NCBI GenBank assembly: GCA_902780585.1
Contig: CACZGA010000001.1
Location: forward strand, 10,819 to 74,818
Origin: an uncultured Erysipelotrichaceae bacterium
GTDB taxonomy: Bacteria; Bacillota_I; Bacilli_A; RF39; UBA660
Direction of reading: 5' to 3'
Length of the DNA: 64,000 bases
In this document: piece by piece, positions 10,669 through 33,071 of the stretch
Layout of the letters: each line of letters starts with the position of its first letter
How positions within the stretch are numbered: the first letter of the stretch is position 1
Position numbers and translations under genes: made by a program
The notes under the pieces: generated by a model
The model's input: the letters and a program-made list of their open reading frames with translations, nothing else
Told to the model about the DNA's origin: nothing
Databases searched by the model: none

Positions 10669-10671
10669 TAT

Positions 10672-17261: not shown

Positions 17262-17419
17262 TGGTTCAAATAGTTAAACAAACTCATGAAGAAAAAGTAG
17301 CAATGTATATGAAATGTAAGAAAAAACAACTTGCTGAAATGCTTGCTACTAGGGATGATTATGATGAAATAAATAGTAATACAGAAAATTATTATTATTA
17401 TGATTCAACTAGTAGTTAA
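17261..17419 (+). CDS. small hypothetical protein (52 aa)
   Basis: TAATG overlap at 17261; runs to TAA 17417-17419. Confidence 0.35.
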   Translation: MVQIVKQTHEEKVAMYMKCKKKQLAEMLATRDDYDEINSNTENYYYYDSTSS

Positions 17420-17918: not shown

Positions 17919-18238
17919 TACAAATTGGAAGTACAAATATATATTTAAATAATAGAGATGGAGCCAAATTGTGGTTAGAAAGAACAGAAGAAGTAGAACC
18001 TAATATATTTAAATATGAGATGCGTGTAGATTATAACCATCAATATTGTTTAAAATATATTAGAGTTATTAGAGATTCTAATAATATTGAAGCTATTGAT
18101 CCATCTGGTGGTCCTTTTATTTCTTTAGCAGATGAATTTGAAAATGGAAAATATAAGATAATTAAAATAATTAATCCTATTACATTTTTAATAAGTGAAA
18201 GAAATAACGACAGAGAAAACAATACTAACAGAAAATAA
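17915..18238 (+). CDS. hypothetical protein
   Basis: ORF track entry. Confidence 0.5.
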   Translation: MIQIGSTNIYLNNRDGAKLWLERTEEVEPNIFKYEMRVDYNHQYCLKYIRVIRDSNNIEAIDPSGGPFISLADEFENGKYKIIKIINPITFLISERNNDRENNTNRK

Positions 18239-19037
18239 TGAAATTCTAAAACATTATTTTGAAAGTATTAGTAAATATCCTATATATAGTCCTGAAGAAC
18301 AAATAGAATTAGCTAGAAAAATGAAAAACGGAGATGAAAGAGCGAGAGAGAAATTGATTACTTCTAATCTCCGTTTTGTTGTTACTTGTGCGAAGAAATA
18401 TACCAAACAAGGAGTTCCATTAATAGATTTAATTCAAAGTGGAAATGTAGGATTAACATTAGCACTTAATAATTATGATCCAGATAGAGGTTATCATTTT
18501 ATAAGTTTTGCAGTGTGGTATATTAGAAGAGAAATTCTTAGAGCAATCTATAATACTGGAAGAACTATTAGGTATCCAATTACCTATATAAGTAAAATAA
18601 CTAAAGTAAAGAAAGCTTATGATGATTTCTTAACTAAATATCAAAGAAATCCAACAGATGAAGAACTTATAGAATTAACTAATTTAACACAAAAACAATA
18701 TAATTCTGTAATAATGGATAAATCATATTGTCAATCAATAGATTCTCCAGTTACAGAAGATGAAAAGACAACTATAGAAGATACTCTTAGTGAAGAAATA
18801 ATTCCTTTTACTGATGTGTTTACTAAAGAAGCTATTAAAAATGCTTTAAATGTTCTTAATCCTAGAGAATATAAAGTAATTAGTGAATTTTATGGATTAG
18901 ACGGAAAACTAGAGAGAAGCATTAAAGATATAGCTAAAGAAATGAATCTTGGTGATGAAAGAATAAGACAAATAAGAAAAGGAGCTATTAAAAAGTTAGA
19001 AAAACGTTGTGGAAAAACATTAAAGACTTTATTATGA
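18195..19037 (+). CDS. sigma-70 family RNA polymerase sigma factor (regions 2, 3 and 4; no region 1.1)
   Basis: Region 2: LITSNLRFVVTCAKKY...LIDLIQSGNVGLTLALNNYDPDRGYHFISFAVWYIRREI. Region 4: REYKVISEFYGLDG...IKDIAKEMNLGDERIRQIRKGAIKKL. Confidence 0.9.
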   Translation: MKEITTEKTILTENNEILKHYFESISKYPIYSPEEQIELARKMKNGDERAREKLITSNLRFVVTCAKKYTKQGVPLIDLIQSGNVGLTLALNNYDPDRGYHFISFAVWYIRREILRAIYNTGRTIRYPITYISKITKVKKAYDDFLTKYQRNPTDEELIELTNLTQKQYNSVIMDKSYCQSIDSPVTEDEKTTIEDTLSEEIIPFTDVFTKEAIKNALNVLNPREYKVISEFYGLDGKLERSIKDIAKEMNLGDERIRQIRKGAIKKLEKRCGKTLKTLL

Positions 19038-19204
19038 TATATTTTACTATTGCTAAAAATGACTGTGGATATTTAATTGATAGTATTTCAGATTGTTATG
19101 AAGTACTTAAAGCTAAATTTCCAGATGAAAAAATATATAAATCAGATAAAGCTATAGTTAGTATTTATGTAATTAAAGATCAATTAGAAGAAATAAATGG
19201 CTAA
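19034..19204 (+). CDS. hypothetical protein
   Basis: The track ORF begins at TTG 19007. The in-frame ATG at 19034 makes an ATGA overlap with the sigma-factor stop. Confidence 0.45.
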   Translation: MIYFTIAKNDCGYLIDSISDCYEVLKAKFPDEKIYKSDKAIVSIYVIKDQLEEING

Positions 19205-19544
19205 AAAATCCACAATTACAAAAGCTACAATTAAAGGTCCAACTAAGGTACAACCTATTTGGCAAATAGGAATTCTTTTTCCAGATGGAAAAAAGATTTC
19301 TAAACCAAAATGTACTTTAAATGATATATTTGATACATATTTTATAGGACTAGATAAATATTTATCTAATAGTTTAACTGCTGAAGAATTATTAGATAAA
19401 TATAAAACCACATTCTCTAGTAAAGGAATTAAAGTACAAATAAATTATATAGATAGTTGGTCACATAAATGGACTGGAAAAATTGCTTGGCCTAGAGAAT
19501 CTAAATTTATTGAATATTTAAATAAAAGATTAAATGCGATTTAA
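19197..19544 (+). CDS. hypothetical basic protein
   Basis: ORF track entry. Confidence 0.55.
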   Translation: MAKKSTITKATIKGPTKVQPIWQIGILFPDGKKISKPKCTLNDIFDTYFIGLDKYLSNSLTAEELLDKYKTTFSSKGIKVQINYIDSWSHKWTGKIAWPRESKFIEYLNKRLNAI

Positions 19545-19785
19545 CGAAATTATTGAAAATCAGTTAGAAGTGGACGATGAAGTCATCGAAGATTATATAA
19601 GAACTCGTGATAAAGAAAATATTATTGAATATACAGTAGAAGATTTTATTCGATTCTTTACTACAGAATATTATGTTGAGGATTTTATAGAAATAAATGA
19701 TACTACATATACTTTAAAACAAAAAGATCTTTTAGAAGAAATAAATCGTGTAAAAGAACAAATTGGTATTAAAGATAATGACTGA
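19534..19785 (+). CDS. hypothetical acidic protein
   Basis: ORF track entry. Confidence 0.55.
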   Translation: MRFNEIIENQLEVDDEVIEDYIRTRDKENIIEYTVEDFIRFFTTEYYVEDFIEINDTTYTLKQKDLLEEINRVKEQIGIKDND

Positions 19786-20146
19786 ACAAGAATTTTTAGA
19801 AAAAAGAACACCTATCTGGTTAGAAGGAGAAGACTTACATATAAGTACTCCTAGTAATATGGATAAGAATGATATGCATGTATTTTTGTCCAAGAAATAT
19901 GGATATAATTGGATGTTTGCAATTCGTGGATATTACTGGCCAGGCAGTCATGTAATGCTTTATATAGGAGATTATGAATGTCCTAATTGTACTACACTAG
20001 TGGCTCCTTATATATTTAATTATTTTGATGATATTAAATATGTTGGATTTGGATGTAATAAAGGTAAACCAGGAGAAGTATGGGAACCTAAGATTATAAT
20101 AGTTCGTGATATGAATTGTTTGAAAGATGATATTAGAAGTATATGA
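19778..20146 (+). CDS. hypothetical protein
   Basis: The track ORF begins at TTG 19763; the in-frame ATG is at 19778. Confidence 0.5.
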   Translation: MTEQEFLEKRTPIWLEGEDLHISTPSNMDKNDMHVFLSKKYGYNWMFAIRGYYWPGSHVMLYIGDYECPNCTTLVAPYIFNYFDDIKYVGFGCNKGKPGEVWEPKIIIVRDMNCLKDDIRSI

Positions 20147-22055
20147 TTTAGAGTCGTTATCTAACTTATTTACTTATACTGGCTATCGTTCTAAAACTGA
20201 TACTTGGTATCAATATGTAATTTGCAAATGGCGTAATGATGCTAAAGAACTTTATGAACATCTAAAAGAAGAGAAATTTGCACTTTGTGGATTTAATAAT
20301 CTGGCTTACGATTATCCGTTATTACATCATTTTCTTAGACATTGGAAAGAAGAATATGAATATTATCACGGACAAGAATTAGCTCAAGCTTTGTATGCTA
20401 AATCACAATATCTTATAGAAGAATTATTCACAGAGATTAAGAAACCACTAATTCCTCAAATAGATTTGTATAAAATTTGGCATTATAACAATAAGGCTAG
20501 AATACAATCACTCAAAGGATTAGAAATACAAATGAGAATGGAGAATGTGGAAGAAATGCCTATTCATCATGCTCATTGGTGTCAAGAAGGAGACGAAGAA
20601 CAAATACTTGAGTATAATAAGAACGATGTACTTGCTACTTATAAATTTCTTTTAGTAACTTTAGGACAAACTGATTATCCTCTTTATAAAGGAAAGAACA
20701 AACTCCAATTAAGAAGTGATTTAAATAAAAAATTTCATGTAAATGTAACTAATATGGGTGATGTTCCAATGGGCGAAGAATTATTATTACAATTATATTC
20801 TAGAGCTACAGGACAAAATCCATATTATTTAAAGAAATCTGGAGGAACACCTAGAAATCTTATTTGTTTAAAAGATTGTATTCCATTTTGGTGTAATCTT
20901 AAAACTAAAGAGTTTAGTAAATTTTTAAATGAACTACAGAATACTTGTGTTACTGGAGAAAAAGGAGAATTTCAATTTAGTGTAGTATTCCATGAATTTA
21001 AGTTTGATTTTGGATTAGGTGGTAGTCATGGATCTATAAAACCAGGTGTATATGAAGAAAATGAAGATTGGATAATAGTAGATTATGATGTTTCATCACT
21101 ATATCCATCTGTAGCTAAATCTCTTCAACTTTATCCAGAACATTTAGGAATACAATTTATGAATCAATATGTAGGATTTATAGATACACGTATTGCTGAA
21201 AAACATAAACCTAAAGATACTCGTGATAATGTTTTAATTGAAGGATTTAAACTTATTGTAAATGGAGCTTATGGTAAATCTAATGAAGAAAAATCCTTTT
21301 TATATGATCCCTTATATACATTTAAAACTACTATTGCCGGACAGATATTTATTTGTATGTGGGCTGAACGATTAGTAGAAGCATCTCCAGAATTAACATT
21401 CTTACAAGCAAATACAGATGGAATTACTATTAGAATTCCTAAACATCGATTAGAAGCTATAAGAAAGGCTAATGAACAACTTACTAAAGAAACTACTCTT
21501 ATTATTGAAGAAGCCTTTTATAGTAAGATGTTCATCAGGGATGTCAATAATTATGGAGCTGTATATAAGGATTCTACTCCAGAACATGAACACATTAAAT
21601 TAAAAGGTGATTTTGAAGTAGATAAGGAGTTTCATAAAGATCCTTCTATGAGAATTGTTCCGTTAGCAGTTAAAAATTATTTTGTATATGGAATACCTGT
21701 TGAAGAAACTATTAAAAAAGATAGGGATATATTTAACTTCTGTATGCAATTAAAAACTAATTCATCAAGTAATGCTTTCTTTAGACATTTAATAGATGAA
21801 AATCTTGTTGATGAACAGTTACACAGAATGACTAGGTATTTAGTAACTAAAGGAAAAGATTCTGGAATTCTTTTAAAGAAATTTCAAGATGGTCGAATAA
21901 CTGGAGTAAATGTAGGATATTCAGTAACTTTATTTAATAAAGCTTATCATTTAGATAATTGGGATGATTATAAATTAGATTATCAGTTCTATATAACTGA
22001 AGCTAATAAATTAAAAAATCCATTAATTATGAAAGAATTAGATTTGTTTGGATAA
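20127..22055 (+). CDS. family B DNA polymerase with 3'-5' exonuclease domain
   Basis: Exo motifs VYDLES, NNLAYDYPLL and EYNKNDV. Pol motifs DYDVSSLYPS (DxxSLYPS), KLIVNGAYGK (KxxxNSxYG) and QANTDGI (motif C). Compact at 642 aa. Confidence 0.9.
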   Translation: MILEVYDLESLSNLFTYTGYRSKTDTWYQYVICKWRNDAKELYEHLKEEKFALCGFNNLAYDYPLLHHFLRHWKEEYEYYHGQELAQALYAKSQYLIEELFTEIKKPLIPQIDLYKIWHYNNKARIQSLKGLEIQMRMENVEEMPIHHAHWCQEGDEEQILEYNKNDVLATYKFLLVTLGQTDYPLYKGKNKLQLRSDLNKKFHVNVTNMGDVPMGEELLLQLYSRATGQNPYYLKKSGGTPRNLICLKDCIPFWCNLKTKEFSKFLNELQNTCVTGEKGEFQFSVVFHEFKFDFGLGGSHGSIKPGVYEENEDWIIVDYDVSSLYPSVAKSLQLYPEHLGIQFMNQYVGFIDTRIAEKHKPKDTRDNVLIEGFKLIVNGAYGKSNEEKSFLYDPLYTFKTTIAGQIFICMWAERLVEASPELTFLQANTDGITIRIPKHRLEAIRKANEQLTKETTLIIEEAFYSKMFIRDVNNYGAVYKDSTPEHEHIKLKGDFEVDKEFHKDPSMRIVPLAVKNYFVYGIPVEETIKKDRDIFNFCMQLKTNSSSNAFFRHLIDENLVDEQLHRMTRYLVTKGKDSGILLKKFQDGRITGVNVGYSVTLFNKAYHLDNWDDYKLDYQFYITEANKLKNPLIMKELDLFG

Positions 22056-22057
22056 AT

Positions 22058-22396
22058 ATGAAAATTAAAGATTTAATTGCTAAAACTCCTGAAGTATCGG
22101 AGGAAAAATTATTAGAATTTATTAATTCTAATAAACACTATTTAAGAAGTACTACATCTAGATCAGTATATTCTCGTAATAAAGAAGAAGATGATACACA
22201 TGCCATACTAAAAGAGTATGATAAGATACAAGAAAAAACATCTTATCTTTCAAAATCTCAAAGAGAAGAAATCTCAGGTTTTGTAGGATGGTGTATGATT
22301 CAAATGGTTAAAGCTGATGGAGAAAGCAGAAGTAACGATACCCTGGGAACTATACCAGAAATTGAAGAAATTAGGGATAATCCAGAATCCGAATGA
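22058..22396 (+). CDS. hypothetical protein
   Basis: ORF track entry. Confidence 0.5.
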   Translation: MKIKDLIAKTPEVSEEKLLEFINSNKHYLRSTTSRSVYSRNKEEDDTHAILKEYDKIQEKTSYLSKSQREEISGFVGWCMIQMVKADGESRSNDTLGTIPEIEEIRDNPESE

Positions 22397-22637
22397 TGAT
22401 ACTAGAAGCTTCAATGTTGGAGCTTCTGATTATTCTAAACATACAATTCAACCATGGAGTATATGGATTGATTACAATTTAAATGGGTTTGATGCAGATA
22501 TTATAAAACGAGTTCTTAGAACAAAAGATGGAGAACCTCGTAGTAAAGATTACGAAAAGATAATTCATATCTGTAAAGAAAGACTTCGTCAATTAGAAAA
22601 TGAAAATAGAAATTCAGAGAGTAACCTCTTGGACTGA
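22317..22637 (+). CDS. DUF3310-like protein
   Basis: GASDYSKHTIQPWSIWIDYNL...DADIIKRVLR...DYEKIIHICKERL fits the DUF3310 pattern as I remember it. Has an unusual 80-nt overlap with the upstream ORF. Confidence 0.5.
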   Translation: MEKAEVTIPWELYQKLKKLGIIQNPNDDTRSFNVGASDYSKHTIQPWSIWIDYNLNGFDADIIKRVLRTKDGEPRSKDYEKIIHICKERLRQLENENRNSESNLLD

Positions 22638-23157
22638 TGTATTAAATGCAGCAAGATTTACTCAAAGACTTCCTTTAAAAAGTGGAGAACCTTCGATAAA
22701 ATGGAAGAAAAAAATTATTAAAGCAGAGCATTCTCCTTTAAGATGTTTAATGTTTAATATAGATTTTTATGACATACCCTATTATGTGTCAGTTCATCTT
22801 GTTCGTCATGTTCATGCTCAGCCTTTTGTTAGTACAAGTCGTCCTGATATTGATGGACATCAACAACCTAGAGAGGAACAGCACAAGACAGATCCAGTAA
22901 ATATGAGATTATTTCTTAATGCTCAAGAAATAATTAATATTAGTAAAGTAAGACTTTGTAATAAAGCAGAAAAAGAAACACAAAAAGTTTGGGTTAGAGC
23001 TATATATGAATTATCAAAGATAGAACCTGAACTAGCATGGGCATGTCAACCTAGTTGTATATATAGAGGACATTGTCCAGAGTTTAAATCATGTGGATTT
23101 TCAGATGGAGAGTTATTCCCTTTAAAAGTAAACGATTATATTAACAATTTAAATTAA
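22600..23157 (+). CDS. divergent ThyX-like (flavin-dependent thymidylate synthase fold) protein
   Basis: AEHSPLRCLMFNIDFYDIPYYVSVHLVRHVHAQPFVSTSRPD parallels the ThyX core (HxSxxEH ... RHRxxSxxxxSxRY). However, RHR is RHV and SQRY is TSRP, and the protein is only 185 aa. Confidence 0.5.
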   Translation: MKIEIQRVTSWTDVLNAARFTQRLPLKSGEPSIKWKKKIIKAEHSPLRCLMFNIDFYDIPYYVSVHLVRHVHAQPFVSTSRPDIDGHQQPREEQHKTDPVNMRLFLNAQEIINISKVRLCNKAEKETQKVWVRAIYELSKIEPELAWACQPSCIYRGHCPEFKSCGFSDGELFPLKVNDYINNLN

Positions 23158-23163
23158 ATTATT

Positions 23164-23307
23164 ATGACTAAAGAATTTCCTTGTACTTGTAAGAGTGATT
23201 TCCAAGATGAACGCTATGGAAAAGGTATTAGACTTTTTAATGAAAGAATGGCTGGTACCAAAAATAATGGATGGCGTTGTACTGTATGTGGTAAAGAAAT
23301 AAAATAA
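23164..23307 (+). CDS. 47-aa zinc-ribbon-like protein
   Basis: CTC ... CTVCG cysteine pairs; ATG 23164 to TAA 23305-23307. Confidence 0.4.
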   Translation: MTKEFPCTCKSDFQDERYGKGIRLFNERMAGTKNNGWRCTVCGKEIK

Positions 23308-23308
23308 T

Positions 23309-23440
23309 ATGCATTATAGTAATTGTTATAGATGTGGATGGTTTCGTGAGATAGAAAGATCTGACGGAACCATCCGTAATTATTGTAACGATAGAGATTG
23401 TACTGTAGATCCTTATGATCCTGAATGTAATTATAATTAA
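23309..23440 (+). CDS. 43-aa Cys-rich protein
   Basis: CYRCG ... CNDRDC ... EC; ATG 23309 to TAA 23438-23440. Confidence 0.4.
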   Translation: MHYSNCYRCGWFREIERSDGTIRNYCNDRDCTVDPYDPECNYN

Positions 23441-23442
23441 TT

Positions 23443-23646
23443 ATGAAAATTAGAGTTCAAAGAAAAGTAGAGGTGTGGGTAGAGGATATTTATCATATAG
23501 ATGATGAATCTCAAATAGAAGATGCCATAAATTACGATATTGATTCTGATGATTCAGATACTTTATGGGAAACTCAAATAGACTTAGGTCCTGTTAAAGT
23601 ATATGATGAAGACTGGAACACTTTATATAGTAATGTAAATGAATAA
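23443..23646 (+). CDS. hypothetical acidic protein
   Basis: ORF track entry. Confidence 0.5.
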   Translation: MKIRVQRKVEVWVEDIYHIDDESQIEDAINYDIDSDDSDTLWETQIDLGPVKVYDEDWNTLYSNVNE

Positions 23647-23956
23647 ATATATTAAAACAGATATTGAACAAGGAATAACATTCCTTAAAATAGCTATTAA
23701 TAATGCTCTTGCTAACTTAGAGACTGGAGAAGAAAAGGAAATCAAATTTGAATATCCGATTCCGTTACAATTAATAATCAATTGTGCTAAAGAAAGAGGA
23801 TGGACTGAAGATTCAAATATGAATTCTGATTGGACTAATGGTTGGCAAATAGATTATTGGTATAGTATGATTCATCCTAATAGATCAGATTATTTAAGTA
23901 TTGATGGATCTTTACTAGACGGAAACACTTCTTTAAGAATAATAAATGATTATTAA
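23639..23956 (+). CDS. hypothetical protein
   Basis: ORF track entry. Confidence 0.55.
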   Translation: MNKYIKTDIEQGITFLKIAINNALANLETGEEKEIKFEYPIPLQLIINCAKERGWTEDSNMNSDWTNGWQIDYWYSMIHPNRSDYLSIDGSLLDGNTSLRIINDY

Positions 23957-24131
23957 TGTTAATATATCCGAATGTTTAAGCTCAACAAAGAAAATTGAAG
24001 TTCCTGATGATTATGAATATGATCCAGTTACTTTAAAAAACTATGTTGAAGAACAAATTATGTTGCCTCACGATATTTTACGTGAGTATAATTATTATGG
24101 ATGGTATGTTGATGATTTTTGTGTATTATGA
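23946..24131 (+). CDS. hypothetical protein
   Basis: ORF track entry. Confidence 0.45.
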   Translation: MIINVNISECLSSTKKIEVPDDYEYDPVTLKNYVEEQIMLPHDILREYNYYGWYVDDFCVL

Positions 24132-24454
24132 CTAAAGAAATTTGGATACAATATAAGGGAAAATACATAAAGAATCCATCTAAATGGATAATGTTTAAAT
24201 GGAATCTAAGGAATTGGTTTACTAAATGGAAAATAGTTGACAAAACTTGTTATAAATTAGTTCGTATTGATGAATTAGACAGATGGTTTTCCTTATCTTC
24301 TAAAGAATATAAAGAAGCTGATCGTCTTTATAAAGAAGAACATAGAACTCTTTCATATGAATTTTATCCTTGTGCTGGAATAGGATGGGGAATAAGAGTA
24401 CATGATTTGGATACTAAAGAAATTTTTGATATAACAAGTTATGATAATTGGTAG
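24119..24454 (+). CDS. hypothetical protein
   Basis: ORF track entry. Ends at TAG 24452-24454, with a backup TAA at 24458-24460. Confidence 0.5.
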   Translation: MCIMTKEIWIQYKGKYIKNPSKWIMFKWNLRNWFTKWKIVDKTCYKLVRIDELDRWFSLSSKEYKEADRLYKEEHRTLSYEFYPCAGIGWGIRVHDLDTKEIFDITSYDNW

Positions 24455-25022
24455 TCATAATTCATGGAGTTATTTACCTCCTAAAAAATTTTGGATGAAA
24501 CTCATAAAATTTACTGCTAAATGTCAATCGTTAAACATTAAAGAACAGTATAAATTAGGAGTAAGATGTTTTGATCTAAGAGTAAGATTTAACAAGGATA
24601 AAATTGCTAAAATTTATCACGGAATAATTGAATATAATTATTCTCCTATAGAATTGTATGAAGATTTATCTTGGTTAAATAAACAATCTGATAAAGTATA
24701 TATAAGAATACTACACGAAATTAGAAACAAGAAAAATTATACTATAGATTCAATAAATAGTTTTATCGATTTTATAGAATTAGTTAAATTTCGCTTTCCA
24801 AAATTAATTTTTTGGTGTGGTAGAAATCTTTATAACTGGGAGAAAGATTATGATTTTGGAGAAGATCCTACTTGTGATGAAAAATATGCAAGTGTATGTT
24901 CCCCAAAATTAATTGATGATTGGATTCCATGGTGGTTTGCTTTTAGAAATAATAAGAAAATAGTTAAAGAAGGAACTGATAAAGATATATTGTTAATAGA
25001 TTTTGTAGAATATGTACATTGA
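24441..25022 (+). CDS. PI-PLC X-domain-like phosphodiesterase
   Basis: IIGSHNSWSY (catalytic His context), GVRCFDLRV and KIYHGIIEY (second His) follow the bacterial PI-PLC X-box order. Confidence 0.5.
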   Translation: MIIGSHNSWSYLPPKKFWMKLIKFTAKCQSLNIKEQYKLGVRCFDLRVRFNKDKIAKIYHGIIEYNYSPIELYEDLSWLNKQSDKVYIRILHEIRNKKNYTIDSINSFIDFIELVKFRFPKLIFWCGRNLYNWEKDYDFGEDPTCDEKYASVCSPKLIDDWIPWWFAFRNNKKIVKEGTDKDILLIDFVEYVH

Positions 25023-25467
25023 TGATTTAATTAAAAAAGCTACTCTTGAAAAGAATAGTGCTAAAAAAGAAGCATATCGTGCTATTAAAGCTGAACTCTT
25101 ATTAAATAATTCATCTAAGAATCCCAAACCGATGGGAAAAATGATTAATGTTGGAGATAGCACTTTATGTGAATTAGAGATTTCTATTATTAAAAAACAA
25201 ATTCAAATAAGAGAAGAACAAGTATCTATGTATGAAGCTAATTCTAGAAAGGATTTAGCTGATATGTATAGAGAACAAATGAAATATCTTAAGGAACTTC
25301 TTCCTCCAGAAATTTCTAAAGATAAAATTCAAGAGGCTGTTGTTACTGCCTATCCTAATGGATTTACTCAAAAAGAAATGGGTAAAGTAATTAAAGAAAT
25401 TAAAGCTATTTATCCTACAGCCGATGGAAAGATTATTTCAGAAATTGTAAAAGAATATATTGTATGA
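25012..25467 (+). CDS. YqeY / GatB C-terminal-domain family protein
   Basis: RKDLADMYREQMKYLKELLPPEISKDKIQEAV and KEMGKVIKEIKAIYPTADGKIISEIVKEYI parallel the YqeY signatures (R.dLa...E...l..yLP..ls.eEi ; dMGkvM......aDGk.vs..Vk..L). Confidence 0.75.
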   Translation: MYIDDLIKKATLEKNSAKKEAYRAIKAELLLNNSSKNPKPMGKMINVGDSTLCELEISIIKKQIQIREEQVSMYEANSRKDLADMYREQMKYLKELLPPEISKDKIQEAVVTAYPNGFTQKEMGKVIKEIKAIYPTADGKIISEIVKEYIV

Positions 25468-25661
25468 ATCTTGTTTATAGTTGTCTAAGTAATATTTGTG
25501 TAGCTATATTATTTGTATTAGCTACAAAAATTGGAGAACATGATATAGTTTATGGAGTTATTGCATATGTTGTAGCATTCATATGTTTAGACCTACATTC
25601 CTATATAGATAAAAAACTTAATTATCCTAATAATATATTCATTAATTCTCAAACAAAATGA
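25464..25661 (+). CDS. small two-TM membrane protein
   Basis: Hydrophobic stretches NICVAILFVLATKI and GVIAYVVAFICL. Confidence 0.5.
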   Translation: MNLVYSCLSNICVAILFVLATKIGEHDIVYGVIAYVVAFICLDLHSYIDKKLNYPNNIFINSQTK

Positions 25662-26230
25662 TTACTTTAGTTATTGTACATGCTCAAAATGACTTTATTA
25701 CGGGAACTATGTGTGTTAAAAATGCAAGAAACGTAATAGAAGAAATTAAAAAATTTATTAAAAATCATCAAAAAGAAATTGACAAAATTATTTTTGTTGT
25801 AGACTGGCATCCATACAATCATTGTTCATTTAAAAAGTATGGCGGAGAATATCAATATCATTGTATTCAGTATACTCCAGGAGCATGTATTGAACCTAAA
25901 CTTTTAAAGTATGTTCAGTCTCTAGAACTTGATTATGAAGTAAGTAGGATTGGGGAAATAGAGGAAGTATCCGAATTAGGTGCATTTAATGAAATTGAAT
26001 TTGTACAAGATGCTCTTGGAAGCAGATATTATTTTGATAGTATTGCTACAGCTGATGCAAATACAGATTTTGTAATATGTGGAGTATCAAATTCAGTTAC
26101 TTCTACTATAACTAATATGTTAAAGGAGAATTTAGTTCCAAAGGTGTTTATGCCTGGAATTATATCTAATGATGGATGTAGAATATTTAGTGAATTTGTT
26201 AAAGAAAGACAATTAGAAAAAACAACATGA
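25658..26230 (+). CDS. isochorismatase-family protein, nicotinamidase (PncA)-like, with catalytic residues apparently substituted
   Basis: IVHAQNDF, VVDWHPYNHCSF and YHCIQYTPGA match the PncA metal-binding and core motifs. By eye alignment, the catalytic Asp position reads His (VH) and the GxxxDxC Cys position reads CGVSNSVTS. Confidence 0.6.
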   Translation: MITLVIVHAQNDFITGTMCVKNARNVIEEIKKFIKNHQKEIDKIIFVVDWHPYNHCSFKKYGGEYQYHCIQYTPGACIEPKLLKYVQSLELDYEVSRIGEIEEVSELGAFNEIEFVQDALGSRYYFDSIATADANTDFVICGVSNSVTSTITNMLKENLVPKVFMPGIISNDGCRIFSEFVKERQLEKTT

Positions 26231-26724
26231 ACTCTAAATTGAAGAATAAATTGTCTAAAAAAAGTCGTTTAAATAAAATTAAACAGCAACTTTGTAATAG
26301 AATAAATCAATGTAAATCTTTAAAAGAACTCGAAGGATGGAAGAGAACTTTCTCTTACCATCCAGTTCTTAAAGATGATCAAGATTGGGATTATGATTTC
26401 TTTTTTGATTTAATTGAATTTAAATTAAAAAGAATGAAAGAATACTTTCATACTCATAATATTGTTGTTGATGAATATATCTATGGAGATATTTGTAATA
26501 AATTAGTAAATATTCTTAATGCAGGATATAGGACTGATATTATTTTGGATGAAGATCTGATAACTAAAGTAAATGATAGAAATAAGAACAGATTTCTTAA
26601 TGAATATGAAATAAATTTCATATCTAAATGTCCTAAATATTATTATGCTACTATAAGAGAAGCTAAAGCTAAATCTTTATTTTGGAAATATTTACAACAC
26701 AAGATTGAATGGTTATGGGATTAA
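26227..26724 (+). CDS. hypothetical protein
   Basis: ORF track entry. Confidence 0.55.
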   Translation: MNSKLKNKLSKKSRLNKIKQQLCNRINQCKSLKELEGWKRTFSYHPVLKDDQDWDYDFFFDLIEFKLKRMKEYFHTHNIVVDEYIYGDICNKLVNILNAGYRTDIILDEDLITKVNDRNKNRFLNEYEINFISKCPKYYYATIREAKAKSLFWKYLQHKIEWLWD

Positions 26725-26736
26725 ATTTTACTATGT

Positions 26737-26865
26737 ATGAGAACAATAACTTGTCCTAAGTGTATGAATCACTTCTCTGTGACCATTTCTGATGCAATAG
26801 ATGAACACGGAGAAGTTTATATTTGTCCACATTGTGGATGGAAATTAAGATATGTCGAAGAATGA
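26737..26865 (+). CDS. 42-aa zinc-ribbon protein
   Basis: CPKC ... CPHCG; ATG 26737 to TGA 26863-26865. Confidence 0.45.
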   Translation: MRTITCPKCMNHFSVTISDAIDEHGEVYICPHCGWKLRYVEE

Positions 26866-26998
26866 AGAACAAGAATTATTATCATTAGTAAAGGATAATA
26901 ATAAAATGCTCAAAGATATTTGGATTATTTTAAATAATCCAAATAATGATATTAAAGATTTTATAATGAATGTAATTGCTAATCAATTTGGAAGATGA
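26852..26998 (+). CDS. small hypothetical protein (48 aa)
   Basis: ATG 26852 to TGA 26996-26998, translated by hand. Confidence 0.35.
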   Translation: MSKNEEQELLSLVKDNNKMLKDIWIILNNPNNDIKDFIMNVIANQFGR

Positions 26999-27120
26999 AT
27001 CCAACAGATGAAGAAATTGAGAAAGTTTTAAAATTAGCTAAAGAATATTCTAGATTGAATGTTCCATTTCAACAAAGAGTTAATATGTTTGATTATATTA
27101 GAGAAAAGTGGAATGAATGA
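26995..27120 (+). CDS. small hypothetical protein (41 aa)
   Basis: ATGA overlap at 26995; runs to TGA 27118-27120. Confidence 0.35.
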   Translation: MNPTDEEIEKVLKLAKEYSRLNVPFQQRVNMFDYIREKWNE

Positions 27121-27394
27121 TTTTGAAAAAAGATTATATAAACATTGGATATATACTTCTAACTTATACAATATAGTTCAAGATTTAATAAATGATTTAT
27201 TTGAAAGAGGATTTAGCTGTCATTGTGATAATTATAAATCTGGACAATATATTTCTGTAATAATTAATAATTATGATGAAACATTTGAAGAAGTTCTTGA
27301 ATTTCTTTTAGAAGAATATGATCCAAATTATTATGGTAGTTTAGGATATGTTATTGAAGAAGATGATAAAATAAGCTTTTATATTAAAATATGA
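27113..27394 (+). CDS. hypothetical protein
   Basis: The track ORF 27059-27394 overlaps the previous small ORF. The in-frame ATG at 27113 gives a compact arrangement. Confidence 0.5.
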   Translation: MNDFEKRLYKHWIYTSNLYNIVQDLINDLFERGFSCHCDNYKSGQYISVIINNYDETFEEVLEFLLEEYDPNYYGSLGYVIEEDDKISFYIKI

Positions 27395-28043: not shown

Positions 28044-31000
28044 TTAAGTTAATTCTCTTTCTCCTATTTTTCTACCAGTTAATTCTAATTTAACACTTTC
28101 CCAAACAGGTTCAGTACTTTTTCCCATACCACTAGATTTAACCATAAAATCAAATAAATCCTATTTTCCAGTTGCTGTTCTTAATACATTATTAGATAAT
28201 CTATCAGCAGATTTTATAGCAAACGGAGTCCAATCTTTACCTCTTCCAGCTATAGATTTAATAAAGTTAGCATCGTCTGTAGATATTTTTAAAGTATCAC
28301 TAGTTAAAGTTAATGCATTATTTTTGATAGCATTACCAAATCCTTTATTTCCAGTTTCTTTTACATACTATTTTACTTGTTTATCTAATGAACCTAACAT
28401 AAGATTTCCTATAAGTAACCATATTATTAAATCTACAAATAATTGTCTTAAATTAGCATTGTATAATCTTCTTAATTCAGGATCAACATTTTCATCATGT
28501 AATAGGTACCATGCTCCTTTTATTCCAGATTTAGTAGTTTGATCAGATTTTCCATTCATTGCTCTTGCCAATTCCCACATTGTAACAATTATTCCTTCTT
28601 GTGGACGTCTTTTCCAAGTTTGAACGGCTACTCCTGTATCATCTTCTGGTTTTTCAATTCTTTTTGGAATTAAATCTCCATCTTCATCTATAGTCCAACA
28701 ATATTTAATTTTTTCTCCATTTGGTCCTTCTTCTTCGTAATCTTCAAGCTTTCCTTCTTGTGTATAAGAACGAACTTGAGCATATTGATTCTTTTTAGCT
28801 GACCAATAAGTATTCATTTGCATAAACATTGCTCCTACAGTATATGAATGTAATAAAGATTTCTTTTCATGTGCATAATATCCATAAATTCTATCAGATA
28901 AAGCTTTAGCTGATTCAGATTGTTGATTAGTGTAAGCTTTTGGAAGAGCTTTAGGATTATTTATATCAAGTGTAAATAAAGTTCCATCTGAATATTTCGC
29001 TCCTTCTAATTCAAACTATCTAGCCATAGTAATATATAATGATTTTTGTTCATTATATTTTTTTAATTCTAAAGGAGAAACAGATGAATCTTTACCTTTA
29101 TATTTAGCAAATATATCGAATCTTTTATCCTTAGTCCAATCATAAACTAGTTTTCCATCAACTACTTTATAAGCTTCTAATGAACCATCTTTATGCATCT
29201 AAGCATAAAAAAGAGTCATTCTATTATAAAAATCAGGACGTGATGCAAATCTAAATCCTACTCCCCAGAAATGATAAAGTAATCCAGTATTATCTGTTTT
29301 AATTCTATCTATATAGCTATTAGCATCCATATCATTAAATCCATACTATTGATTTAATAATTCTGACATTGTAAAATCATTACCAAGATGTAATAAATCC
29401 TACATTACAATAGACCATCCTTTAAATAATCCTTCTCGTGTAAATGGATTATCATCATTATTATAATATTTTATAAATAGAGTAATGTCTTTCCATAATC
29501 CATCTATAAATTGATACCACTGTCTAGGGTTAAATGCTAAAGCTAATTTAGATGCTGTAGACATTGCTACTTTGGAAACATCAGTTACTATTTGAGATAA
29601 ACTATCATCTCTATCTTCTACAGGACGATTATGAATTCTTGTTTTAATATATGTAAGAATATATTCAATATCATTCTTAAAACTTTCATTCAGTATTCCT
29701 CCTTGCATATTTAAATGAAGTGTTAATGCTCTAAGTACTGGAAATATATTATTTAATTCATCAGCCATTTTATAAGCTGAAGTATGTTTTAATAAAAGAG
29801 TTTCAAGATTATGTTCAAAATATGCTTTTCCACCTAATCTTTCATCAGAAAGGATTTGTAACCTATATTTTTCATTTTCTTCTCCTTCTCCATCTGTAGC
29901 ATCAAAATTATTTATAGCTTCCCAAAATTCACCGTTCTTTAATTTTTCTTTATATTTATCATCGGTTACTAATCCAGTAGCATCAGCATCATATCTTCTT
30001 TTGAGTGTACTTAACATATTCTTAGGAGCTAACATAGCAAATCTAGATCTTATAAAATTAAGCCATCCGTGTCTTACGGCAACTTCAGAAGTTAAATCTC
30101 CTTTTGTTAACGGAACTCGTAAATATCGTTTTGGATTTTTCTTTATATCTTCTTCTATAGTATTAGGATTAAAATTTTTTATTCTATTATCATTAATTTT
30201 TAATAATGCAAACTTTAAGAAATCTCTTTCTTCATCAGTAAGTTCAACAGAATTATCCCAAGGATTTTTAAACAATAAATCTTCTCCACTTTCATCATAC
30301 ATATTTATATATAATGACTATACTTGATTTCCAGTTGTATATTGCTATAATTTTCCAAATCCTTTTTTCTCTTTAAGAGTTTCTACTTTTTTTCTTAATT
30401 CTTGATTAAATGCAATAACATTATCACGAACATTTTGATAAGCTTTTGTTACTTGATCTGTAAATTCATTTAATGTTTCACTCTATAATGTTCCTGGATT
30501 ATCCACCATTGTTCCAGCTATTCCTCTAAAGTTACTAAAATTTCCTCCAACTAATTGAAATTTAGCATGGTCTTCTATTTGCTGGAGTAAATTTACATCA
30601 GATAACTAAGCAATTGCATAAAGAATTTGTCTATGTAAAAGATATTCAGGATTAGAGTTTTCATCAGGAATACTAGATGTTTCCTAATTTAAATTCTTAT
30701 ATCCATAATCAAACCCGTCATTTCCTGTAAGTTTTTTATCCAATTCTATTAATTTCTATCTTAATAAAATAGGATTTGCTCCAAAATCATCTAAATCAGA
30801 AATACATCTTTTTATGTCTTGTTTAATTCCATATGCAATTTTACCTAATCCATTTTCTTCTGGACTAGCTTCTAAACATTCTTCAAAAGCAAATCTACAA
30901 GCATCAACTCTATTTACCATTCTGATTTTTCCGTTTTTTCCGTCAAAATTAAAATTATTTTTAATATTTCCTAATGAACATAATCTTTTAAAATTATATA

Positions 31001-33071
31001 ATAATTGTTCATTAGTTGCTGTTATACCCTTTTGTCCTCTAGGACTTATTACTTCAATGTTTCCAATACCTTTATTTTCAGTATTAAATAATCCTGGAAT
31101 TTCATTTAAAAGTAACATTACTTCCTATAATTCTATATTTCCACCTACTCCAGTCATAACTTGATTATTAGAATCAGAATTAACTACATCATCAGTTAAG
31201 AAAGTTCCTAATAAAGTAGTTCTATTTTTTCCAGAAAATTTAACTTTCTATGTAGGATTAAAATAATCGGAAATTCTAATTACATCAATTAATCCAGTAT
31301 ATTTATTTCTAAACATCAGTACTCCTAACTAATCAAATATAGAATCATATTTATCATCACTTATTAACTTCCATTTATTAGTGTTTGTATATTTTCCTAG
31401 TTTATCTTTAATCCAAAGAGGATTATCTTGACCAAAAGATGCTTTAGATGCAAGATTTAAAAAATCTTCTTCTGTCTCAGTATTTCCTAAAGATTTAAAA
31501 GTTTTTCTAATACTCGAAGTAGTATTTGGAACATAGTATTCTTTATATTCATATTTAGCTACTATTTTATTAAATATAATAGTTTCAGCTTCTTCTTTAG
31601 ATTTGTTACCACTAGCAACAAAATTATTTTTATTGTCTAATTTGAATTCCCAATTCTGAGTTATTTTATTCTTTTTAATACCTCCTGCTTCTTTTATCAT
31701 CTCAGCTATATCTTCTTTTGACATATTTTTTCCATTTTTCTTTATTTTAAATAAAGTTCTTGAATTTTCAGCAACTTTTGTTAATAAATCACCTGTTATA
31801 AAAGAATCTTTTTTAAAATTTCTTGGAAACACTTGTTCAAGATTATTTTCTATAGTGTTATATAAATTTCCACCTTTAGTTGCAGATGTATTAGATAATT
31901 CTTGAATTGGTTCATCCATTATAGATATTTCTGAAAATTGTACTTTTTTAGTATTATTATCAAATCCAAAGTTTTCAAATTTTAAAGGAATTATTCCTAA
32001 TCTCATTTCTTCATTAGGTTCAATTCCAATACTTTGTAATAATCTTCTATAAGCAGCCAACTAATATTTAAAGGTTAAAACTTTAGCAGGATCGTATTTA
32101 TCAAGTTCTTTAGAATAATTTGATTCAGTATAATCTTTAGGAGAACATTTAAAATCAAGTATTCCTATTCTACCATCTCTTGATACTACCATTAAGTCAA
32201 TTCTTCCTACTACTGGAAAAGCGTTAGTTCCATCCGATCCTTCTCCTATAACTTTCTTTTCAGAATAGATTACACAATCTTCTCCATAATCCTTTTTAAT
32301 ATTTTCATATATCTTAATAGCAGCTTTAATAGAAGATTTTTTTATTTCTGGAGTTATATATGGTCTAAATTTAGAATAATGAGACGTTTTTAATTTTTTT
32401 TCAAATTCTATATTTAACTAGTCTTCAGTAAGATTTTTAAATCTAATTCCTTCGTCAGTTTTAGATTTGAAGAAATCTGACATTATATTATGAATTAAAT
32501 CTCCACAAAGAGCTTGTTGTTTCCATACATCTGTCATTCTTTCTTCGATTTTATTTAAAGTATCTTCATCTGTAATCTTTTGGGGTATTCCGTTTATTTT
32601 AGGAAGTAGATCATCAACAAATGGTAATTGTGCCTATATTTTTGGATCATCATATTTACCATCTCTATATAACTGTTTCTAACCACCTGGGTTAGCTTCT
32701 GTTCCATCCCAGTAATTTTCAGCTACAAATACAGGAAATACAGGATTTCCATCAGGTCCTTTCATCTAATGAATAATATCAGTAATAGATCTATAATCTC
32801 CAGAAGCTTTAATAGGATCTAAATCTGACGGTTCTCCTTCTTCTGAAAGTTCAGTTATTTTATTTGATTTTTCTCCTTTCTCATATAAATCAGATACTTT
32901 CTCTAAAGCTTCATGAACTTGATTCTATTGTTCACTCCATTTAGAGTTTTCTGTTTTTTTAAAAGCAGCGTCTCCTAATTTATTTCTTAAATTATTATGG
33001 AATAATAAGTATTCATCTAACTCTAATTCTGAATTAAAAGTTAGTCCATTATATTTATATTTACAAGTCAT
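28044..33071 (-). CDS. late giant protein F (1675 aa, TAG read as sense) with an N-terminal RecB-family PD-(D/E)XK nuclease domain
   Basis: Track fragments 28368-28829, 29016-29198, 29400-30302, 30756-31118 and 31329-32060 share one frame, and all end at TAG. A triplet check of every gap found no in-frame TAA or TGA. The ATG at 33071 overlaps the stop of gene E (ATGA). The true stop is TAA 28044-28046. Confidence 0.85.
32040..32520 (-). other. PD-(D/E)XK nuclease motif set inside protein F
   Basis: CGDLIHNIM, GRIDLMVVSRDGRIGILDFKCS (D ... D-x-K) and TFKY[TAG]LAAYRRLL (QxxxY, with the Q encoded by TAG 32061-32063). Confidence 0.65.

What the first reader, a model, noticed from the sequence alone, without database searches (positions are those of the whole stretch)
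25012..25467. YqeY / GatB-tail domain protein encoded by a phage that reads TAG as Gln
The 151-aa product matches the YqeY family at both ends. YqeY is the free-standing paralogue of the C-terminal tail domain of GatB, the tRNA-dependent amidotransferase subunit that makes Gln-tRNA(Gln). The same domain fused to Deinococcus GlnRS enhances tRNA(Gln) binding. A phage copy could help charge or amidate a suppressor tRNA(CUA) whose altered anticodon is a poor substrate for host GlnRS or GatCAB. This link is my inference, since the gene lies in the standard-code module and so could be expressed before the late genes.
Basis: inference. Interest (0 to 1): 0.65.

Follow-up and report, generated by a model that had tools for sequence, protein, structure and literature searches.

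The report
Phage YqeY gene, not recoding-specific
A large gut or rumen phage that reads the TAG stop codon as glutamine does carry a small YqeY gene, but clades of its relatives that use the standard code carry the gene about as often, and so do many unrelated large phages, so it is an ordinary accessory gene and not a recoding device.

Summary
Window 25012..25467 (+) is an intact 151-aa ORF. It matches Pfam YqeY (PF09424) end to end at 59 bits against a cutoff of 27. Its predicted fold matches the solved YqeY structures, and it is under purifying selection (dN/dS 0.19-0.36). The phage is recoded: the minus-strand late genes (28-64 kb) carry 300 or so in-frame TAGs that align preferentially with Gln. 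The plus-strand early genes, including YqeY, have almost none.

The proposed link to TAG-to-Gln recoding is not supported. YqeY sits at the same position, next to the first late gene, in 46 demonstrably TAG-recoded relatives and 31 standard-code relatives. At clade level it is equally frequent in both groups (11/22 against 4/9 clades). Homologues occur in 86 phage records, nearly all from large phages whose names point to standard-code groups (KVP40-like, Tsamsa-like, XacN1, phage G). No tRNA lies within 10 kb of YqeY in 81 loci. The tRNA clusters of close relatives hold no tRNA(CUA) and no tRNA-Gln.

The best reading is a code-independent accessory gene encoding a non-catalytic module that probably binds tRNA or other RNA. 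Two leads emerged: a fusion to an RNA-repair HAD phosphatase domain in one standard-code clade, and recurrent NAD-salvage neighbours.

The parts
25012..25467 (+). YqeY-family gene. 151 aa, ATG start, TGA stop, no in-frame TAG.
   Evidence: ORF and translation. PF09424 at 59.1 bits over the full length. phrog_1460. AF2 pLDDT 90 with 7 helices plus a beta hairpin at residues 44-53. Foldseek top hits are 8XJE, 1NG6 and 8XJG. dN/dS is 0.19-0.36 against six orthologues.
24441..25022 (+). Upstream co-directional ORF of 193 aa. Its end overlaps the YqeY start by 11 nt. It shows a weak likeness to a PI-PLC-X-type phosphodiesterase.
   Evidence: coordinates. Pfam PF00388 at E 5e-4, below the cutoff. 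PDB phosphatidylinositol phosphodiesterases at E ~1.5e-3. The function is not established.
25464..25661 (+). Small hydrophobic ORF of 65 aa. Its ATG overlaps the YqeY stop (ATGA), which suggests one transcription and translation unit.
   Evidence: The junction sequence GTATGAATC was read.
25658..26230 (+). Nicotinamidase (PncA)-like, isochorismatase-family ORF of 190 aa, two genes downstream of YqeY.
   Evidence: PF00857 at E 3e-5, just below the cutoff. All seven PDB sequence hits are nicotinamidases, pyrazinamidases or an unnamed alpha/beta-hydrolase-like protein; the best is 1ILW at E 3.6e-12. They align only over residues 1-82.
300..27394 (+). Early and replication block, almost free of in-frame TAG. 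It holds primase-like, PD-(D/E)XK nuclease, NrdD/NrdG, dUTPase-like, metallophosphatase, ATP-dependent ligase, sigma-70 homologue, DNA polymerase, ThyX, YqeY and PncA-like genes.
   Evidence: The 27 TAG-free early ORFs tabulated end in TGA or TAA only. A few ORFs in the block do carry in-frame TAG, for example 2965..3519.
28044..33071 (-). First late ORF, 1675 aa with 21 in-frame TAG. It converges on the YqeY region and served as the synteny and recoding anchor.
   Evidence: Homologues carry 8-55 in-frame TAG in recoded relatives and none in standard-code relatives.
33068..63703 (-). Rest of the TAG-recoded late block held in the window. It includes ORFs of 3614 aa (96 TAG) and 3037 aa (73 TAG).
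   Evidence: It is syntenic with the standard-code record MT835470.

Best explanation
The ORF encodes a genuine free-standing YqeY protein. This is a small, all-helical, non-catalytic module of the GatB-tail / YqeY superfamily.

It is an accessory gene of the early, standard-code block in a large lineage of ~130-195 kb phages whose layout resembles Zeta crAss-like phages of Bacteroidales. The lineage keeps or loses the gene irrespective of the genetic code of the late genes.

The mechanism is inferred, not shown. As proposed for the GatB tail and for the YqeY domain of Deinococcus GlnRS, the protein most likely binds tRNA or other structured RNA. It would then act in trans as an adaptor or helper for enzymes that charge, process or repair RNA. 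That would make it part of the translation-support toolkit that tRNA-rich large phages carry. It is not a dedicated TAG-to-Gln recoding factor.
For: Family and fold: PF09424 at 59 bits over the full length. PDB YqeY chains match at E down to 3e-26. AF2 pLDDT is 90 and Foldseek finds only YqeY structures as significant.

A functional gene: the ORF is intact in 81 of 81 related loci, with the same conserved residues in both code classes. dN/dS is 0.19-0.36. More than 100 near-identical full-length variants occur in metagenomes.

Code independence: the gene is syntenic, lying 1-3 kb from the first late gene, in 46 demonstrably TAG-recoded loci (four further short loci were uninformative) and in 31 standard-code loci. 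Clade-level frequency is 11/22 against 4/9. MT835470 uses the standard code, is collinear with the window's late block and carries YqeY.

General phage trait: homologues occur in 86 phage records, among them KVP40-like Vibrio phages, Tsamsa-like Bacillus phages, phage G, XacN1 and RAS14, RSP15, the Lak phages and 630-735 kb phages. Where records are annotated, they are named tRNA amidotransferase or GatB/YqeY domain protein.

RNA link: in 14 standard-code loci and in MT835470, YqeY is fused in one ORF to a HAD_SAK_2 domain, described in Pfam as the 'HAD domain in Swiss Army Knife RNA repair proteins' (E 7.8e-27). In recoded locus L061 that domain is the gene two upstream of YqeY. In RSP15 YqeY follows a cluster of 7 tRNA genes. 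In LR756504 7 tRNA genes lie within 10 kb. In Pseudomonas phage pf16 it is reported beside the tRNA clusters (PMC5587285).

Origin: the closest cellular homologues are from Bacteroidota at 30-36% identity.
Against: No function is established for any free-standing YqeY. The literature calls it poorly characterised (PMC13374519). tRNA binding is extrapolated from GatB and from Deinococcus GlnRS, and neither was a significant fold match here.

Gene contexts are heterogeneous: NAD salvage, nrdDG, uvsY and tRNA clusters.

The HAD_SAK_2 fusion is confined to one part of the lineage, and that domain is common in big phages anyway (334 records).

'YqeY-negative' means not found within 10 kb of the late gene. 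MT835492 has the gene 20 kb away, so the clade table is approximate. One of its two samples was also YqeY-anchored.
Confidence: 0.55

Rival explanations
1. The phage YqeY is a recoding helper. It binds a phage amber suppressor tRNA(CUA) and improves its glutaminylation by host GlnRS, or its amidation by GatCAB, so that late genes can be read.
For: The phage does reassign TAG, most likely to Gln. YqeY lies in the TAG-free early block, so it can be made first. TAG-recoded Lak megaphages also carry a free-standing YqeY in a recoded region. Many recoded relatives carry it. How suppressor tRNAs are charged in TAG-recoded phages is stated to be an open question (preprint 10.1101/2021.08.26.457843). 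Published Zeta crAss-like genomes include standard-code members that still carry a tRNA(CUA) (PMC12386605 Table 1). Standard-code relatives with YqeY therefore do not by themselves exclude a tRNA(CUA) link.
Against: The gene is equally frequent in standard-code and recoded clades. It is intact with the same conserved residues in both. It is present in dozens of large phages I take to be standard-code. No tRNA lies within 10 kb of it in 81 loci. No tRNA(CUA) or tRNA-Gln occurs in the window, in the 10 kb upstream, or in the tRNA clusters of the window's clade and of the MT835492 clade. No sequence feature is shared by recoded YqeYs only; the window clade's hairpin insert is specific to that clade.
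Confidence: 0.1
2. YqeY belongs functionally with phage NAD+ salvage or counter-defence genes and not with tRNA charging. It might, for example, work with enzymes that rebuild NAD+ or that handle ADP-ribose or NAD-linked RNA ends.
For: NAD-related genes recur within a few kb of phage YqeY in separate lineages.
- The window has a PncA-like ORF two genes downstream.
- L062 has NAD synthase, an NMN-adenylyltransferase-like gene and a NUDIX gene directly upstream.
- L064, L070 and L080 have a NUDIX gene 0.6 kb upstream.
- XacN1 has NAD+ synthetase 0.7 kb upstream.
- RAS14 has NadM/ADP-ribose pyrophosphatase and Nampt on either side.
- Tsamsa and PBC2 have ribose-phosphate pyrophosphokinase and Nampt immediately upstream, which resembles the published NARP1 pair.
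Against: The papers on NAD+ reconstitution that I searched do not mention YqeY. KVP40, phage G, RSP15, Sundance and KP13-16 show no NAD gene within 4-5 kb. These regions are mixed bags of auxiliary genes in large phages, so adjacency may be incidental. I ran no statistical test. No biochemical rationale is known.
Confidence: 0.1
3. YqeY acts on the ribosome. In bacteria the gene forms an operon with rpsU (bS21) and is co-regulated with it. The phage copy would modulate host small-subunit function or translation initiation.
For: The rpsU-yqeY operon and its co-regulation are described in Francisella (PMC13374519). The same gene pair appears in a bacterial-looking record in the phage collection.
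Against: tblastn with that record's bS21 found no homologue in the window, in the 10 kb upstream, in MT835470 or MT835492, or in the Lak-C1 and LR756504 loci held. There is no direct evidence that YqeY binds ribosomes in any organism.
Confidence: 0.08

Closest known systems
Phage 'tRNA amidotransferase' / GatB-YqeY domain proteins (PHROG phrog_1460), for example KVP40.0381, Tsamsa gp191, XacN1 ORF360 and phage G gp509
   Same: They share the Pfam and PHROG family, are free-standing at ~135-150 aa, and are encoded among early or auxiliary genes of large phages.
   Different: Identity is below 30-35%. The window clade has an extra beta-hairpin insert at residues ~40-53. The host lineage is Bacteroidota-associated.
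Bacterial YqeY (B. subtilis 1NG6, C. jejuni 8XJE, V. parahaemolyticus 8XJG)
   Same: Same fold and domain order, with full-length alignment.
   Different: There is no rpsU neighbour. Identity is 18-23% in the structural alignment. The function of the bacterial proteins is itself unknown.
GatB C-terminal tail domain and the YqeY-like C-terminal domain of Deinococcus radiodurans GlnRS
   Same: Same superfamily. Prior knowledge credits these domains with tRNA binding, and they are the basis for any tRNA-related inference here.
   Different: Pfam GatB_Yqey (PF02637) gave no hit at E<=1. No GatB or bacterial GlnRS chain was a significant Foldseek match. This protein is not fused to any catalytic body. 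The window clade shows no Gln-specific context.
'Code-change module' of TGA-recoded Jade phages: suppressor tRNA, TrpRS and RF1 in one standard-code operon upstream of the lysis genes (preprint 10.1101/2021.08.26.457843)
   Same: The gene is encoded in standard code in a phage whose late genes are recoded.
   Different: No suppressor tRNA, synthetase or release factor lies next to YqeY. The gene is not restricted to recoded genomes.
[quoted passage not shown]
   Same: Lera is a ~180 kb phage with the same layout: a forward replication block, a reverse structural block, many tRNAs and a gene of this annotation among the tRNA-metabolism genes.
   Different: Lera recodes TGA, not TAG. I could not obtain its sequence, because PV725988 is not in the collection. 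Orthology is therefore untested.

Membership tests
YqeY family (Pfam PF09424) | Profile match above the curated gathering score over the whole domain | tested here: met
   59.1 bits against a cutoff of 27; residues 4-149 match profile positions 5-142 of 143.
YqeY family (Pfam PF09424) | Two-lobed all-helical fold as in 1NG6, 8XJE and 8XJG | tested here: met
   AF2 pLDDT 90 with 7 helices. Foldseek prob 1.0 and TM 0.55-0.67 to those structures only.
YqeY family (Pfam PF09424) | Free-standing protein of about 150 aa | tested here: met
   151 aa with its own start and stop. In 14 related loci and MT835470 it is instead fused to HAD_SAK_2.
YqeY family (Pfam PF09424) | Bacterial context: operon with rpsU (bS21) | tested here: not met
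   tblastn with a bacterial bS21 found nothing in the window or in the related phage sequences tested. This is a feature of bacterial loci, not a requirement of the protein family.
GatB tail domain (Pfam GatB_Yqey PF02637) | Profile match to PF02637 | tested here: not met
   Not listed at E<=1. No GatB chain was significant in Foldseek.
GatB tail domain (Pfam GatB_Yqey PF02637) | Attached to the GatB catalytic body within a GatCAB enzyme | tested here: not met
   The ORF is 151 aa with no other domain. No GatA, GatB or GatC appeared among the window ORFs scanned.
tRNA-binding helper of Gln-tRNA(Gln) formation (as the Deinococcus GlnRS YqeY domain) | Binds tRNA(Gln) and raises charging efficiency | not testable with these tools
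   Needs binding and aminoacylation assays.
Phage code-change module (suppressor tRNA with charging and termination factors) | Physically clustered with a suppressor tRNA, aaRS or release factor | tested here: not met
   No tRNA in the window or within 10 kb of YqeY in 81 loci. The neighbours are a phosphodiesterase-like ORF, a small hydrophobic ORF and a PncA-like ORF.
Phage code-change module (suppressor tRNA with charging and termination factors) | Presence correlates with recoding among relatives | tested here: not met
   11/22 recoded clades against 4/9 standard-code clades, Fisher p = 1.0. 31 standard-code loci hold an intact gene.
Phage code-change module (suppressor tRNA with charging and termination factors) | The genome encodes the matching suppressor tRNA(CUA) | tested here: inconclusive
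   None was found in ~74 kb of the 174 kb contig (window plus 10 kb upstream) or in the tRNA clusters of relatives. The other ~100 kb could not be read.
Zeta crAss-like phages (proposed Echekviridae) | TerL, portal and MCP phylogeny within the Zeta clade | not tested
   These genes lie outside the window. Only the layout, contig sizes of 130-195 kb, the mix of TAG-recoded and standard-code relatives, the large tRNA sets and the giant late ORFs agree with the published description.

The most novel reading that the evidence does not exclude
YqeY is the RNA-recognition module of a phage tRNA-maintenance or tRNA-repair activity. The conserved single-ORF fusion to a HAD_SAK_2 domain in a standard-code sister clade, and the neighbouring arrangement in one recoded relative, would then be a Rosetta-stone clue to the unknown function of the whole YqeY family. 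The domain is described as typical of RNA-repair phosphatases. On this reading YqeY guides end-healing or related enzymes to tRNAs damaged by host defences. The recurrent NAD-salvage neighbours might belong to the same counter-defence island.
Probability: 0.2. Interest if true: 0.6.

Novelty: new member of a known kind. Interest (0 to 1): 0.25.

Why it matters
How phages that reassign TAG get their suppressor tRNA charged is a real open question, and a phage-encoded helper would have been a direct handle on it. This gene is not that handle. It is a common accessory gene of large phages, distributed without regard to genetic code, so it should not be annotated or cited as recoding machinery.

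What remains useful is modest:
- A well-populated, purifying-selected phage branch of a protein family whose function is unknown even in bacteria.
- A domain fusion (HAD_SAK_2-YqeY) and a repeated NAD-salvage neighbourhood, which offer testable hints about that function.
- A large set of closely related phage clades that differ in code, suitable for asking which genes do track recoding.

Tried and rejected
- **Near-identical DNA in the phage collection.** None found.
- **NCBIfam.** No meaningful hit.
- **Alignment A1 as a locus query.** Too diverse to give search patterns, so I used the narrower A2.
- **MT835470 as a 'tRNA-less, standard-code' counter-example.** Its standard code holds. Its lack of tRNAs does not count, because the record starts at the homologue of window 9118 and so lacks the part of the early block where relatives keep their tRNAs.
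- **Hunting the amber suppressor.** ARAGORN and Rfam on the window, on 10 kb upstream, on MT835492 and on relatives' tRNA clusters reached through two anchor genes (a 301-aa ORF and RNase H) found 14-19 tRNAs per cluster but no CUA anticodon and no tRNA-Gln. Extra Rfam-only hits were read by eye or re-run with relaxed ARAGORN. One is Thr(UGU) and another a second UCA.
- **Exact-pattern search for lineage tRNAs.** Rejected, because the tRNAs are too divergent even within a clade.
- **Fetching the Lera genome.** PV725988 is not in the collection.
- **Raw locus counts from the late-gene-anchored scan.** These gave 16/40 recoded against 1/40 standard with YqeY nearby and looked like an association. 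I rejected them as evidence because they are dominated by a few over-sampled clades. The clade-level table shows no difference.
- **bS21 next to phage YqeY.** None found.
- **Not used.** The search of protein representatives, the two remaining homologous-protein searches, and read mapping were judged unlikely to change the verdict.
Full report
**1. The observation**

Window 25012..25467 (+) is an uninterrupted ORF of 151 codons with an ATG start and a TGA stop. Pfam YqeY (PF09424) scores 59.1 bits against a gathering score of 27 and aligns residues 4-149 to nearly the whole profile. PHROGs places it in phrog_1460, 'tRNA amidotransferase'.

A profile of phage YqeYs finds the three solved free-standing YqeY proteins (8XJG, 1NG6, 8XJE) at E 3e-26 to 2e-21.

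An AlphaFold2 model has mean pLDDT 90. It shows seven helices plus a short beta hairpin at residues 44-53. Its only significant Foldseek matches in the PDB are those same YqeY structures, at probability 1.0 and TM 0.55-0.67. No GatB or bacterial GlnRS chain is significant.

The gene is under purifying selection. dN/dS is 0.19-0.36 against six orthologues. More than a hundred full-length variants at 84-100% identity exist in metagenomes.

**2. The phage and its code**

The window is part of a 174,238-bp metagenomic contig. GC content is 27.5%.

Reading TAG through raises ORF coverage from 45% to 90%, and the gain is confined to the minus-strand block from 28 kb onward. That block contains ORFs of 1675, 3614, 3037, 1156 and 926 aa carrying 20-96 in-frame TAGs each.

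The plus-strand block (0.3-27.4 kb) holds these genes:
- primase-like, PD-(D/E)XK nuclease, NrdD/NrdG and a dUTPase-like ORF
- a metallophosphatase and an ATP-dependent ligase
- a sigma-70 homologue, a DNA polymerase and ThyX
- YqeY

I tabulated the 27 early ORFs that carry no in-frame TAG. They end in TGA (14) or TAA (13), never in TAG. A few other early ORFs do carry TAG (section 9).

In late ORFs TAG makes up 2.32% of codons, against 2.59% for CAA+CAG. Where relatives differ at a TAG position, Gln is by far the most enriched partner: 7/34 and 14/52 against a 2.9% background.

The layout, the contig sizes of relatives (130-195 kb), the large tRNA sets and the mix of codes among relatives fit the published description of Zeta crAss-like phages. 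I did not test membership, because TerL, portal and MCP lie outside the window.

**3. Is YqeY tied to recoding? Relatives**

A search of IMG/VR with a YqeY alignment returned 98 relatives, and the best 80 were kept. With one more locus, I held 81 loci.

All 81 carry an intact YqeY ORF. In nearly all of them it lies 1-3 kb from the homologue of the window's first late gene, on the opposite strand. The late-gene homologue splits the loci by code:

| Loci | In-frame TAG in late-gene homologue | ORF coverage |
|---|---|---|
| 46 | 8-55 | about 0.5 standard, 0.87 with TAG read through |
| 31 | 0 over 1300-1790 aligned residues (364 in the truncated locus L065) | 0.83-0.97 standard |
| 4 | too short to call | n/a |

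The residues conserved across the family are the same in both classes: R79, D81-L82, L97-P98, M123-G124, K128, P135, A137-D-G-K140 and V146-K147.

GenBank record MT835470 uses the standard code throughout (coverage 0.927 against 0.932). It is collinear with the window's late block and has YqeY at the same place.

To get a denominator I searched with a conserved segment of the late protein, regardless of YqeY. This found 253 relatives, of which the best 80 were kept. Raw counts looked like an association: YqeY lay within 10 kb in 16 of 40 recoded loci and 1 of 40 standard loci. But a few clades contribute dozens of near-identical contigs.

I therefore clustered all 157 informative loci on the late-protein segment:

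| Clustering identity | Recoded clades with YqeY | Standard-code clades with YqeY | Fisher p |
|---|---|---|---|
| 90% | 12/27 | 5/11 | 1.0 |
| 75% | 11/22 | 4/9 | 1.0 |
| 60% | 5/10 | 3/6 | 1.0 |

Three caveats apply. 'Absent' means not within 10 kb of the late gene. In MT835492, a TAG-recoded relative, YqeY sits 20 kb away beside nrdG. One of the two samples was also YqeY-anchored.

**4. Is YqeY tied to recoding? Other phages**

With the window protein as query, the phage collection returned only Lak megaphages, a 636-kb phage and three gut records. The Lak phages are TAG-recoded: my check of the Lak-C1 locus gave coverage 0.50 rising to 0.83. At first this looked like support for the link.

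It was a sensitivity artefact. With the Vibrio parahaemolyticus YqeY as query, 86 records match:
- 32 Vibrio phages, mostly KVP40-like
- 19 Bacillus phages (G, Tsamsa-like, PBC2)
- Xanthomonas XacN1 and Xoo-sp13, and Stenotrophomonas RAS14
- Klebsiella and Brevibacillus phages
- phages of 630-735 kb and the Lak phages

The LR756504 YqeY query adds Ralstonia RSP15 and Salicola SCTP-2. Nearly all of these are large phages. From prior knowledge I take the named isolates to use the standard code; I did not test them.

Phage YqeY is therefore a known, recurrent accessory gene of large phages. The paper on Zeta crAss-like phages lists an 'aspartyl/glutamyl-tRNA amidotransferase' among the tRNA-metabolism genes of Lera, which recodes TGA, not TAG.

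**5. Suppressor tRNA and a Gln link**

ARAGORN and Rfam find no tRNA in the window, in the 10 kb upstream, or within 10 kb of YqeY in any of the 81 loci.

I reached the lineage's tRNA cluster through two anchor genes, a 301-aa ORF and an RNase H gene. In relatives the cluster lies a few kb upstream of the start of the early block.

- In the contigs that carry the closest YqeY orthologues, the cluster holds up to 19 tRNAs. It has no CUA anticodon and no tRNA-Gln.
- Two of those contigs do have a tRNA with a UCA anticodon.
- The MT835492 clade has 3-7 tRNAs in its cluster, again without CUA.
- ARAGORN does report CUA anticodons in two other loci of the same scan (L151, L152). It would therefore have reported one here if it were of ordinary form.

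About 100 kb of the window's genome remained unreadable with the tools. Absence of a suppressor is therefore not shown.

Published Zeta genomes include amber-suppressing members with tRNA(CUA), standard-code members with tRNA(CUA), and standard-code members with no suppressor. I could not map my loci onto those named genomes. A residual YqeY-tRNA(CUA) association therefore cannot be excluded.

**6. What it most likely does**

These steps are shown:
- It is a YqeY-family protein.
- It is expressed from a tight co-directional gene array. The upstream ORF overlaps its start by 11 nt, and its stop overlaps the next ATG.
- It is conserved and under selection.
- Its distribution is independent of code.

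These steps are inferred. The superfamily's characterised members, the GatB tail and the Deinococcus GlnRS C-terminal domain, are known from prior work to bind tRNA. Several phage contexts point to RNA:
- YqeY follows a 7-tRNA cluster in RSP15.
- It lies within 10 kb of 7 tRNA genes in LR756504.
- It is reported beside the tRNA clusters of pf16.
- In 14 standard-code relatives and in MT835470 it is fused in one ~240-310 aa ORF to a HAD_SAK_2 domain, 'HAD domain in Swiss Army Knife RNA repair proteins' (E 7.8e-27). In recoded locus L061 that domain is a separate gene, two genes (~250 nt) upstream.

I therefore favour a non-catalytic adaptor that binds tRNA or other RNA and serves the phage's translation-support or RNA-maintenance functions. 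Confidence in that mechanism is moderate to low, because no free-standing YqeY has a demonstrated function.

**7. Rivals**

- **NAD-linked or counter-defence role (about 0.1).** It rests on repeated adjacency to NAD-salvage genes:
  - PncA-like in the window
  - NadE, a NadD-like gene and NUDIX in L062
  - NUDIX in L064, L070 and L080
  - NadE in XacN1
  - NadM and Nampt in RAS14
  - Prs and Nampt in Tsamsa and PBC2

. Five other phages show no NAD gene nearby, and the NAD-reconstitution papers do not mention YqeY.
- **Ribosome or bS21-linked role (about 0.08).** It follows from the bacterial rpsU-yqeY operon. No bS21 gene accompanies the phage gene.

**8. Novelty and verdict**

This is a new member of a known kind: phage YqeY, phrog_1460. 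The closest cellular homologues are from Bacteroidota at 30-36% identity, which fits a Bacteroidales host.

The finding is correct as an annotation and ordinary as biology. The attractive recoding link is not supported. Interest is 0.25. The score is kept above the floor by the HAD_SAK_2 fusion and the NAD neighbourhood, which are cheap to test and bear on a protein family of unknown function.

**9. Early ORFs that carry TAG**

A few ORFs in the early block break the TAG-free pattern. ORF 2965..3519 has three in-frame TAGs, and the public gene call for the contig spans it as one 184-aa product. ORF 6525..8045 runs through a TAG near its end.

Noticed in passing
L081-L095 (e.g. L082:9536-10441, L085:9527-10459); MT835470.1 29901-30803; L061:9201-9740: In one standard-code part of the lineage, YqeY is fused in a single ~240-310 aa ORF to an N-terminal HAD_SAK_2 domain (PF18143, RNA-repair-type HAD phosphatase; E 7.8e-27). 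In recoded locus L061 the same domain is a separate gene, two genes (~250 nt) upstream of YqeY. HAD_SAK_2 alone occurs in 334 phage records, including KVP40-like and Lak phages, which also have YqeY elsewhere in the genome.
   Followed up: partly
window 25658-26230; L062:8036-9999; L070:8866-9420; XacN1 AP018399.1 240685-242568; RAS14 OP752703.1 211489-219674; Tsamsa NC_023007.1 87937-91209; PBC2 NC_071040.1 86616-90719: NAD-metabolism genes lie within a few kb of phage YqeY in several unrelated lineages. They include a PncA-like nicotinamidase, NAD synthase, an NMN adenylyltransferase-like gene, NUDIX, NadM, Nampt and a Prs/Nampt pair resembling NARP1. No statistical test was run, and five other phages lack the pattern.
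   Followed up: partly
L110:7133-7206 and 7566-7642; L111:5970-6043 (also L143, L147): TAG-recoded close relatives carry a tRNA with a UCA (opal-reading) anticodon in an unusual CCUCAAA loop, although TGA shows no sign of reassignment. Their tRNA clusters lack any CUA anticodon and any tRNA-Gln. How TAG is decoded in this clade is unexplained.
   Followed up: partly
window 2965-3519 (+); also 6525-8045 (+): An ORF in the otherwise TAG-free early block has three in-frame TAGs, and the public gene call for the contig spans it as one 184-aa product. Another early ORF runs through a TAG near its end. So a few early-block genes also need TAG read-through.
   Followed up: no
window 18321-19037 (+): A complete sigma-70 family protein (regions 2, 3 and 4, all above Pfam cutoffs) is encoded in the early block. 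It is conserved in MT835492 at 37% identity.
   Followed up: no
window 25129-25170 (YqeY residues ~40-53): The window's clade has a 14-25 residue insert, predicted as a beta hairpin, between the second and third helices of YqeY. It is absent from all other phage and bacterial YqeYs aligned.
   Followed up: no
window 34129-44973 and 44975-54088 (-): Two giant late ORFs of 3614 aa (96 TAG) and 3037 aa (73 TAG) are collinear with uninterrupted homologues in standard-code MT835470. They are probably the crAss-type virion or transcription giants, but I did not annotate them.
   Followed up: no
L111:2634-4958 (+); L110:5629-6366 (+): Just upstream of the tRNA cluster in close relatives lies a plus-strand ORF rich in in-frame TAG (24 in 774 aa). 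Recoded genes are therefore not confined to the minus-strand late block.
   Followed up: no
CAKLQH020000004.1 66829-75251 (L177), labelled 'Acinetobacter phage MD-2021a': The YqeY hit in this record sits in a typical bacterial chromosome context (gcp, rpsU, yqeY, htpX). The record looks like bacterial DNA filed as phage.
   Followed up: no
L181 (CALEBD010000406.1, 153 kb, 'Clostridium sp.' MAG); L182 (CAZHBQ010000002.1, 78 kb, 'Methanobacteriaceae' MAG): The two best 'cellular' hits for the phage YqeY have the identity level of the gut phage clade (34%) and phage-like contig sizes. They are probably phage contigs binned into unrelated genomes.
   Followed up: no
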